Shown here in pieces: positions 33,065-34,061 of a stretch of 64,000 bases of DNA. This DNA is from a virus: positions 64,001 through 128,000 of the IMG/VR virus record IMGVR_UViG_3300009103_000004. One strand, given 5' to 3'. Made by a program: the position numbers and the translations under genes. How positions within the stretch are numbered: the stretch's first letter is position 1; each line of letters starts with the position of its first letter. The notes under the pieces are model-generated. The model searched no databases, was not told the DNA's origin, and saw only the letters and a program-made list of their open reading frames with translations.

Positions 33065-34061
33065 AACATAACAGAGCTTATACGAGCGTAACGTAACCCC
33101 CGTAACTTATCCCAAACAATCACATACGTAACTTGCCAAATCAGACAAGACACATCGCTACAAATCTCAAAACAACCCATCTTAGCTAAACCCACCAGAT
33201 CAGACAGAACATACCATATCATATTTTAACTCAGCTTAACGAGACACAACTCGACTAAAGCCATACCAATTGCTCAACATATCTGACCTAAAGCAACCCA
33301 GCTCATCCAAACGGAGCAAATCGAAGCTCGCCGGAACCCAACTCATCTTAACCTATCTGACATACCAGAACTGATACCATCTCATAACAGCGAAACTCAT
33401 CATAACAGAGCTGACTCAACAAAGCGGAACAAGTCTCATCATAGCGAAACTCAACAAAACAGAGCGGAACAGCCAAATCTTACCAGAACAAAGCGAAGCT
33501 TACCCCAGCTGAACTTATACTATCTTAACCCAGCTAATCAAATCAGCCACATTGGAGCGGAACTTATCCCATCTGAACCAGAAGCAACTTGACTCATCGT
33601 ATCTGCCGCAACTGATCGCAAAGCACCGCAACATAGCACACTAGAGCATATAATACCAGATCACATCTGCCGAAGCGAAACATAACTGAACATATCTTAA
33701 GCCAACAGGGCTCAACGAAACATATCTGACTTAACAGAACGTAGCCCAACTAAACACAGCAAAAGACTACTTAACATGTAACGCCATATCTGACTTAACA
33801 CAACTCGGGGCAACTCAGCACGTAGCATACCTACCGAACTTACGAGAACTTATCTGACTTAACGGAACGTATCTATACAAATCTCAGCCCATCCCATCTT
33901 AACTTATCTGACATAACAGAGCTGAACAAACCTGGCCGGAACCAAACCCATATCAACTCAGCTCGACAAAGGGGCATCGAATCTGACTTAACAGAGCATA
34001 GCTTATACGAACGTAGCAAAACGAATCCCAGCTAGACGAATCTGCCATAGCAAAACGGAAT
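33065..34061 (-). ncRNA. 5-nt-period guide-like array (GHT-NN)n, about 14 full units
   Basis: Plus strand reads A[ATG]C-NN in phase; boundary ATC-W-G[AC]C (first triplet AGC at 33409, AAC at 33468) at 33140, 33199, 33281, 33355, 33409, 33468, 33542, 33601, 33665, 33724, 33788, 33852, 33906, 33981, 34040. Confidence 0.88.

What the first reader, a model, noticed from the sequence alone, without database searches (positions are those of the whole stretch)
33859..33905. Unit decoding to KKGGEFYTP, an HsdM/N6-adenine methyltransferase motif
Seen: NN = AA AA GG GG GA TT TA AC CC AA. Known: G[EQ]F[YF]TP is the conserved motif X region of type I HsdM and related N6-MTases, often preceded by KKG. Inference: the phage may silence a host restriction-modification operon or a competitor's methylase.
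Basis: partly seen in the sequence, partly recalled or inferred. Interest (0 to 1): 0.85.

Follow-up and report, generated by a model that had tools for sequence, protein, structure and literature searches.

The report
Phage VIPR guide spelling HsdM motif
One 54-base unit of a phage's VIPR guide-RNA array (a CRISPR-like system first described in 2026) matches the most conserved stretch of the type I restriction-modification methylase gene hsdM while skipping each codon's third base, and the same guide recurs in at least ten other VIPR arrays, so these viruses probably aim RNA-guided silencing at a host or rival defence gene.

Summary
On the minus strand, 33859-33905 is ten pentamers (G-N-T plus two variable bases). 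The variable pairs read AA AA GG GG GA TT TA AC CC AA.

The unit belongs to a ~1 kb VIPR guide array directly downstream of a Vipr-family gene. The family profile hits only the solved SUSP1 Vipr structure (E 6.6e-15).

Under the published one-base-skip rule, the nine-codon pattern found 173 sites in two collections. All 173 lie in frame in hsdM, at the motif GKKGGEFYTP. Three control patterns found none. The 0-, 2- and 3-base skip versions found 1, 0 and 1.

Two relatives found through protein homology (47-53% identity) carry the same guide. Their variable pairs differ from ours at 1 of 40 bases, the scaffold at 17 of 60 (p = 0.001).

A pattern scan found nine more distinct arrays with this guide. 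They use different scaffold types. Wherever the contig was long enough (all but two short ones), a Vipr gene lies nearby.

A sister unit spells the C5-methyltransferase catalytic loop.

Silencing itself, the owner of the target (host or rival element) and the host are unproven.

The scan has noted methylase-directed VIPR guides on other genomes before.

The parts
33859..33905 (-). The ten variable dinucleotides of the guide (first to last pair), interleaved with G-N-T scaffold triplets. They decode to [KN][KN]GG[DE][FL]YTP[KN].
   Evidence: sequence and phase parse; all pattern hits in frame in hsdM.
33858..33911 (-). The whole 54-nt vrRNA unit with its boundaries. The 5' end is TCA + GAT and the 3' end is GTTAA + G. 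The pentamer phase slips by 1 nt at each boundary.
   Evidence: Viterbi phase parse; the paper's legend describes 'staggered' vrRNA arrays with 1-nt overlapping positions.
33065..34062 (-). VIPR guide array: about 15 units of 10-14 pentamers (G-N-T + NN). It is the only such array in the 167-kb genome.
34078..34108 (-). A 12-bp G+C-rich hairpin between the vipr stop codon and the first unit. It could be a terminator, an attenuator or a leader. Hairpin-forming sequences appear to sit at the same place in L173 and L177, judged by eye and not folded.
   Evidence: (relatives' sequence).
34133..34993 (-). vipr: a 286-aa Vipr-family RAMP protein with thumb motif RYRP and G-loop GIGEWRP.
   Evidence: 1,560 homologues, alignment A1; profile hits only PDB 36pp 'SUSP1 Vipr protein', E 6.6e-15; AF2 pLDDT 91.9; Foldseek top hits are Csm3/Cas7, probability 1.0.
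35019..35669 (-). Candidate accessory gene (vap-like), 216 aa, directly upstream of vipr on the same strand. Function unknown.
   Evidence: no Pfam family; phrog_15946, function unknown; its only phage homologue lies next to a Vipr-like gene in Cyanophage Cy-LDV1.
33547..33605 (-). Sister unit of the same array. Read in the opposite orientation, its pairs give TGGFPCQAFSV, the catalytic loop (motif IV) of C5 DNA methyltransferases. It is also kept in both relatives' arrays.
   Evidence: units; at least 94 viral-contig hits, 94/94 translate to GGFPCQAFS.

Best explanation
The unit is one guide (vrRNA) of a phage VIPR system.

Shown here:
- It lies in a pentamer array downstream of a Vipr-family gene on the same strand.
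- Its ten variable pairs equal codon positions 1-2 of the HsdM motif KKGGEFYTP plus K or N.
- That string is conserved while the scaffold around it drifts.
- The same string recurs in unrelated-looking VIPR arrays.
- The phage has no copy of the target.

Inferred from the published mechanism:
- The array is transcribed from the minus strand and cut at the 1-nt staggered boundaries into units of about 54 nt.
- About ten Vipr protomers each hold one G-N-U triplet and present the pairs.
- The filament opens double-stranded DNA and pairs with the template strand of hsdM, flipping out each wobble base.
- The resulting R-loop triplex blocks RNA polymerase about 170 codons into hsdM.
- Because hsdS overlaps hsdM, and hsdR can follow on the same strand, the whole type I restriction-modification operon would be switched off.

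Every residue in the motif has a single possible first-two-base pair. One guide therefore fits any hsdM that keeps the motif, whatever its codon usage. Escape would require changing a conserved residue.

Whose hsdM is hit (the host chromosome's or that of a competing prophage, plasmid or island) is open, and so is the pay-off.
For: - Vipr identity.
- Array anatomy and 1-nt staggered boundaries.
- Published rule (one-base skip, wobble alignment, either strand, transcriptional silencing).
- Target specificity: 173/173 pattern hits lie in frame in hsdM. All 10 tested full-match ORFs carry HsdM_N + N6_Mtase.
- Controls: 0 hits for three control patterns. Backward control 0 in 602 genomes against 33 real sites.
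- Skip-rule test in viral contigs: 0-skip 1 hit, 1-skip 52, 2-skip 0, 3-skip 1; the 3-skip hit is itself an array.
- Selection on the pairs: in the two relatives found by protein homology, pairs differ at 1/40 bases and scaffold at 17/60, Fisher p = 0.00095. The single change (AA to AG) gives the known Lys-to-Ser/Arg variant of the motif.
- Recurrence: 11 of 28 hits of the guide-level pattern are pentamer arrays. All nine on contigs long enough to show one have a Vipr-family ORF within about 1.5 kb. None of the other 17 hits does.
- Scaffold types among these arrays differ: G-N-T, GGY, GTC/GGC, A-G-Y.
- Longer guides keep following real HsdM sequences...TP[KN][IM] in L304 and L293...TPR[DE]V[IM] in L292.
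- No self-target with up to 3 mismatches, and no N6_Mtase or C5 methylase gene in the phage.
- Operon context hsdM-hsdS(-hsdR) at two target loci.
- A sister guide against C5 methyltransferases in the same three arrays.
Against: - There is no expression or processing data.
- The scaffold is G-N-U, not GGY, and there is no 3' tail. Transfer of the SUSP1 mechanism to this system is therefore an assumption. Only the C-terminal third of the family profile aligns to SUSP1 Vipr.
- Silencing hsdM after infection cannot remove restriction enzyme already in the cell, so a simple anti-restriction benefit at DNA entry is doubtful.
- The host is unknown. The nearest isolates share only about 33% identity in the RNA polymerase.
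- Only 14 of 173 perfect nine-codon sites also match the tenth pair. That pair may instead belong to the unit boundary.
- An earlier scan case of methylase-directed guides was later marked down, because a provirus's host tolerated 80% matches.
Confidence: 0.7

Rival explanations
1. The guide is real, but its natural targets are hsdM genes carried by competing mobile elements (prophages, plasmids, islands, satellites) rather than the host's own defence. VIPR would then act here, as published, in conflict between mobile elements. It would strip a rival of its restriction-modification module or of its self-protecting methylase.
For: The published natural targets are satellites, prophages and other VIPR systems. 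The nine-codon site occurs in 52 IMG/VR viral or proviral contigs. The sister guide's C5-methylase site occurs in at least 94. Phages often carry orphan methylases (general knowledge).
Against: IMG/VR proviral contigs can include host flanks, so I did not establish who owns the 52 hsdM genes. The same site sits in ordinary chromosomal hsdMS(R) operons. This reading differs from the best explanation only in who owns the target, not in mechanism.
Confidence: 0.3
2. Chance decoding. With about 15 units, two orientations and free third bases, some unit will resemble some protein motif. On this reading the unit targets something else, or nothing.
For: Four of the ten decoded positions are two-fold ambiguous at the protein level.
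Against: Eighteen specified bases match, and every hit in two collections is hsdM. Three controls gave 0. The string is conserved in relatives while the scaffold changes. It recurs next to Vipr genes of distant types. Longer versions continue along real HsdM sequence.
Confidence: 0.03
3. The array is a periodic protein-binding or structural RNA or DNA (a sponge, packaging site or origin) without a guide function. The conserved pairs would reflect constraints other than target pairing.
For: No direct evidence here of processing or targeting. The scaffold departs from the characterised GGY.
Against: A Vipr-family gene lies next to every such array that could be checked. Only the one-base-skip reading finds targets. 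The pairs differ between units but are conserved within this unit across genomes.
Confidence: 0.05

Closest known systems
VIPR systems (Vipr + vap + vrRNA); type II of Escherichia phage SUSP1 and a Pseudomonas fulva prophage (bioRxiv 10.64898/2026.04.26.720920 and 10.64898/2026.04.26.720927; PDB 36pp)
   Same: A lone RAMP protein of the same sequence family. A small upstream partner gene. Guide RNAs built of pentamers with three scaffold bases and two variable bases, 9-16 repeats per guide. Targets found only with the one-base-skip rule and aligned to codon wobble positions. No self-targets. Carried by a phage.
   Different: The scaffold is G-N-U (middle base free) rather than GGY. There is no invariant 3' tail or pseudoknot. 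Units abut with a 1-nt phase slip. The Vipr is longer (286 against 202 aa) and only its C-terminal third aligns by sequence. The decoded target is a restriction-modification methylase, a class not mentioned in the main text of the three preprints. Their supplementary tables could not be read.
'Staggered vrRNA arrays' and alternative repeat consensuses named in the first VIPR preprint (fig. S17, S18; Methods on type classification)
   Same: The legend describes vrRNAs derived from positions overlapping by 1 nt, where the end of one marks the start of the next. That matches the boundaries here. The preprint allows repeat consensuses other than YNNGG.
   Different: The figures are not held, so I could not check whether the G-N-T consensus or this clade is among those shown. 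The listed alternatives (NNNGG, YNNNG, NNNNG) do not literally describe G-N-T-NN.
SUSP1 vrRNA4 against the satellite recombinase active site (bioRxiv 10.64898/2026.10.15.759431)
   Same: A guide whose skipped bases fall on wobble positions of codons for catalytic-core residues. Escape would need a damaging amino-acid change.
   Different: That target is one gene family of one satellite lineage in Enterobacteriaceae, and it was shown experimentally. Here the target is a motif shared by hsdM genes across many phyla, the same guide recurs across distant VIPR types, and nothing has been tested at the bench.
Protein anti-restriction factors against type I systems (Ocr of T7, ArdA); named from general knowledge
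   Same: They would have the same victim, the type I restriction-modification system, and would be carried by a mobile element.
   Different: Those are DNA-mimic proteins that inhibit existing enzyme at once. This would be RNA-guided repression of new synthesis. It could not neutralise enzyme already present.

Membership tests
VIPR system | A Vipr protein (minimal RAMP: RRM core, G-loop, thumb) encoded next to the RNA locus | tested here: met
   The profile of the 286-aa protein's family hits only PDB 36pp 'SUSP1 Vipr protein' (E 6.6e-15), with thumb RYRP and G-loop G-x-G-[DE]-W-R-P aligned. The AF2 model has pLDDT 91.9, and the top Foldseek hits are Csm3/Cas7.
VIPR system | vrRNA made of tandem pentamers, three conserved bases alternating with two hypervariable bases, 9-16 repeats | tested here: met
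   Ten pentamers in this unit and 10-14 in the others. The conserved positions are G and T, with a free middle base. The consensus differs from GGY; the preprint admits 'a related consensus'.
VIPR system | An invariant structured 3' tail (pseudoknot) capping each vrRNA, as in type II | tested here: not met
   Units abut directly at GTTAA-G / TCA-GAT with a 1-nt slip and no tail. This fits the 'staggered array' architecture of the preprint rather than type II, so the locus should not be filed as type II.
VIPR system | Targets obey the one-base-skip rule, with skipped bases on codon wobble positions | tested here: met
   In viral contigs, 1-skip gave 52 hits, all in frame in hsdM. The 0-, 2- and 3-skip versions gave 1, 0 and 1.
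VIPR system | No self-targeting of the carrier genome | tested here: met
   No match with up to 3 mismatches in the 167-kb genome. The genome has no N6_Mtase or C5 methylase gene.
VIPR system | An accessory vap gene in an operon with vipr | tested here: inconclusive
   A 216-aa gene lies directly upstream on the same strand. It has no Pfam family. Its only phage homologue sits next to a Vipr-like gene in Cy-LDV1. It was not compared with vap1-6.
VIPR system | vrRNAs are expressed, processed and bound by Vipr; the complex binds double-stranded DNA and represses transcription | not testable with these tools
No bench data.
Target: type I restriction-modification methylase HsdM | HsdM_N plus N6_Mtase domains, with hsdS (and hsdR) adjacent | tested here: met
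   10 of 10 ORFs with a full ten-pair match carry both domains, with the site at residues 166-293. hsdS overlaps downstream in two loci, and hsdR follows in one.

The most novel reading that the evidence does not exclude
VIPR is used not only against rival mobile elements but also as an RNA-guided counter-defence. On this reading a 'universal' guide has been kept or re-invented in many distant VIPR types. It exploits the wobble-skipping code to recognise the invariant cofactor-binding motif of hsdM in any host, whatever its codon usage. Together with sister guides against C5 methyltransferases, it would shut down restriction-modification operons during infection.
Probability: 0.35. Interest if true: 0.85.

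Novelty: new variant of a known kind. Interest (0 to 1): 0.72.

Why it matters
VIPR was described only in 2026. Its known natural targets are satellites, prophages and other VIPR loci.

A guide matching a motif shared by hsdM genes across many phyla shows the gapped code working at the level of protein motifs rather than single genes. One 54-nt RNA would cover thousands of divergent genes, and escape would require damaging a conserved residue.

Recurrence in at least twelve arrays (eleven of them distinct) with at least four scaffold types points to strong, repeated selection for this target. It makes restriction-modification a candidate major target class of VIPR.

If the silencing is real, it would be the first RNA-guided anti-restriction strategy. 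It would also offer a natural template for broad-spectrum programmable repression.

The claim can be tested with standard reporter and plaque assays in laboratory strains.

Tried and rejected
- blastn of 30500-38000 against isolated phages found no match.
- Rfam finds no family in the array. Tandem Repeats Finder finds nothing, because the units are too divergent.
- Single-sequence AF2 of the Vipr failed with pLDDT 31. It was repeated with an alignment.
- Host inference failed. The RNA polymerase beta/beta' fusion has only about 33% identity to Salmonella phage Arash and Vibrio phages. The guide itself is taxon-blind. The tenth pair narrows hits to 14 of 173, spread over many phyla.
- Supplementary tables of the VIPR preprint are not held, so I cannot exclude that methylase targets are listed there.
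- I considered and rejected an antisense-RNA mechanism. The guide has the sense of the hsdM mRNA, so it cannot pair with it.
- I considered and rejected a coding explanation. There are no long ORFs on either strand, and a 5-nt period is incompatible with a reading frame.
- 17 of the 28 guide-level pattern hits are ordinary chance matches with no pentamer scaffold and no Vipr nearby.

Full report
**What is there.** The window is part of a 167-kb virus record, 94% complete by CheckV. Between two minus-strand genes lies about 1 kb with no long ORF. It has strong A/C excess on the plus strand and a 5-nt period found nowhere else in the window or the genome. Read on the minus strand, it is a chain of pentamers: G, any base, T, then two variable bases. 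About every 54-74 nt the phase slips by one base at a boundary of the form GTTAA-G / TCA-GAT. The unit at 33911..33858 has ten pentamers.

**What kind of thing it is.** VIPR systems consist of a minimal RAMP protein (Vipr), an accessory gene (vap), and vrRNAs of 9-16 pentamers in which a GGY scaffold alternates with two hypervariable bases. One Vipr protomer binds each repeat. The pairs match pairs in double-stranded DNA separated by one skipped base. In natural targets the skipped base is usually the codon wobble position. Either DNA strand can be targeted, and the outcome is transcriptional silencing. The preprint also names other repeat consensuses and 'staggered' arrays, in which neighbouring vrRNAs overlap by 1 nt.

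**The adjacent gene.** The gene directly upstream of the array (34133-34993, minus strand, 286 aa) belongs to a family of 1,560 detectable homologues. A profile of 132 of them hits one thing in the PDB, the SUSP1 Vipr protein, at E 6.6e-15. The thumb RYRP and the G-loop G-x-G-[DE]-W-R-P align. With that alignment AlphaFold gives pLDDT 91.9, and Foldseek's best matches are Csm3/Cas7 RAMPs at probability 1.0. The locus is therefore a VIPR system. It has a variant scaffold (G-N-U), no 3' tail, and staggered boundaries.

**Is the decoding more than chance?** I turned the first nine pairs into the pattern prescribed by the one-base-skip rule.
All 121 sites lie in frame in genes reading '...AGKKGGEFYTP...'.
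- In IMG/VR there are 52 loci, again all in that motif.
- The pattern read backwards and two shuffles of the pair order gave 0 hits each.
- In two samples of 301 genomes the pattern occurs in 20 and 11 genomes. The backward control occurs in none.
- Allowing two mismatches over all ten pairs, 23 of 101 genomes in one phylum have a site, against three control sites.
- Ten of ten ORFs matching all ten pairs carry HsdM_N plus N6_Mtase.
- In two loci examined, hsdS overlaps the end of hsdM, and in one hsdR follows.
- The four spacing rules tested in the preprint give 1, 52, 0 and 1 hits for 0, 1, 2 and 3 skipped bases. The single 3-skip hit is itself a guide array.
- Every residue of the motif (K, G, E, F, Y, T, P) has only one possible first-two-base pair. 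The hits accordingly show every kind of wobble base.

**Is the match maintained by selection?** Two relatives were found purely through homology of the Vipr protein, at 53% and 47% identity. Both have arrays in the same place, and both contain this guide. Against the window's unit, the scaffold differs at 17 of 60 bases, including half of the middle bases. The pairs differ at 1 of 40 (Fisher p = 0.00095). The one change, AA to AG, turns Lys into Ser/Arg, which is the familiar GKSGGEF variant of the motif (general knowledge). Most other units are not shared between these arrays.

**Recurrence in distant arrays.** I then searched for the guide itself: pairs five bases apart, scaffold free.
- The scans found 1 viral and 27 metagenomic loci.
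- Eleven are pentamer arrays.
- All nine on contigs long enough to show one have a Vipr-family ORF within about 1.5 kb.
- None of the other 17 loci does.
- The scaffolds differ: G-N-T, canonical GGY, GTC/GGC and A-G-Y. In one locus the matched strand is opposite to vipr.
- Their Vipr proteins range from about 49% identity to similarity over only the last 55-77 residues.
- Where the guide is longer, it keeps tracking real HsdM sequences...TP[KN][IM] in two arrays and ...TPR[DE]V[IM] in another. Both continuations occur among the HsdM hits.

**Context in the same array.** A second unit (33605..33547), read in the opposite orientation, spells the C5-methyltransferase catalytic loop. Its pattern hits at least 94 viral contigs, and all 94 translate to GGFPCQAFS. 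This guide too is kept in both relatives, along with variants that use the other serine codon family or the PCQPF form. The phage itself has no N6_Mtase or C5 methylase gene and no near-match to the hsdM guide.

**How it most likely works.** The match, its specificity, its conservation and the Vipr neighbourhood are shown here. The rest is inferred from the SUSP1 work. The unit would be cut from a minus-strand transcript and coated by about ten Vipr protomers. It would pair with the template strand of hsdM at codon positions 1-2, forming a roadblock about 170 codons into the gene. That would be polar on hsdS and, where co-transcribed, hsdR. Because the guide has the sense of the mRNA, it cannot act as antisense RNA.

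**What remains open.**
- The benefit is unclear. Repression cannot remove restriction enzyme already present at DNA entry.
- The target may instead be hsdM genes of competing mobile elements, as published VIPR biology would suggest. The 52 viral-contig hits are compatible with that but do not prove it.
- The host could not be inferred.
- No expression data could be obtained.

**Comparison and novelty.** The system is a member of the VIPR family but not of the characterised type II, because the tail is absent and the scaffold differs. Aiming a wobble-aligned guide at codons for catalytic residues is in print for a satellite recombinase. Methyltransferase or restriction-modification targets are not mentioned in the main text of any of the three preprints. 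No paper in the library holds both 'vrRNA' and 'methyltransferase'. The supplementary tables were not available. This scan has noted methylase-directed VIPR guides on other genomes before, one of them later marked down in part.

Noticed in passing
window 33547-33605 (-): A sister unit decodes, in the opposite orientation, to the C5 DNA-methyltransferase catalytic loop TGGFPCQAFSV. At least 94 viral contigs match its pattern and all 94 translate to GGFPCQAFS. The relatives' arrays hold it too, plus variants (Ser coded AG; PCQPF).
   Followed up: partly
L294 10159-10200 (and L278 677-718): In this array the hsdM-sense string lies on the strand opposite to two tandem Vipr-family genes. Either the vrRNA is written on the C-rich strand, or the guide pairs with the other strand of hsdM. 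L302 also has two tandem Vipr-family ORFs.
   Followed up: partly
window 34078-34108 (-); L173 about 1320-1345; L177 about 4919-4948: A G+C-rich hairpin-forming sequence appears to sit between the vipr stop codon and the first guide unit in all three related loci. In the window it was found by the terminator scan; in the relatives it was judged by eye. It could be a terminator, an attenuator or a leader.
   Followed up: no
window 41004-41074 (-): Rfam tmRNA match (60 bits, E 4e-21) only 71 nt long.
   Followed up: no
window 35019-35669 (-) and Cyanophage Cy-LDV1 BK059895.1 30852-31669: The 216-aa gene upstream of vipr and the Vipr C-terminus both have their only (or rare) isolate-phage homologues side by side in Cyanophage Cy-LDV1. 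That suggests a conserved two-gene module. Mycobacterium and Gordonia phages also carry Vipr-family genes annotated as hypothetical.
   Followed up: partly
window 30927-32661 (-) and L173 2644-4162: The DUF6915 gene and the GT90 glycosyltransferase downstream of the array are syntenic in the relative L173, so the VIPR locus sits at a fixed place in this phage lineage.
   Followed up: no
genome G000:C1:20808-24482 (-): A single 1,224-aa ORF joins an RNA polymerase beta C-terminal domain (Rpb2_6) to a beta-prime N-terminal domain (Rpb1_2). The nearest isolates are at about 33% identity (Salmonella phage Arash; Vibrio phages D69, D181 and D148).
   Followed up: partly
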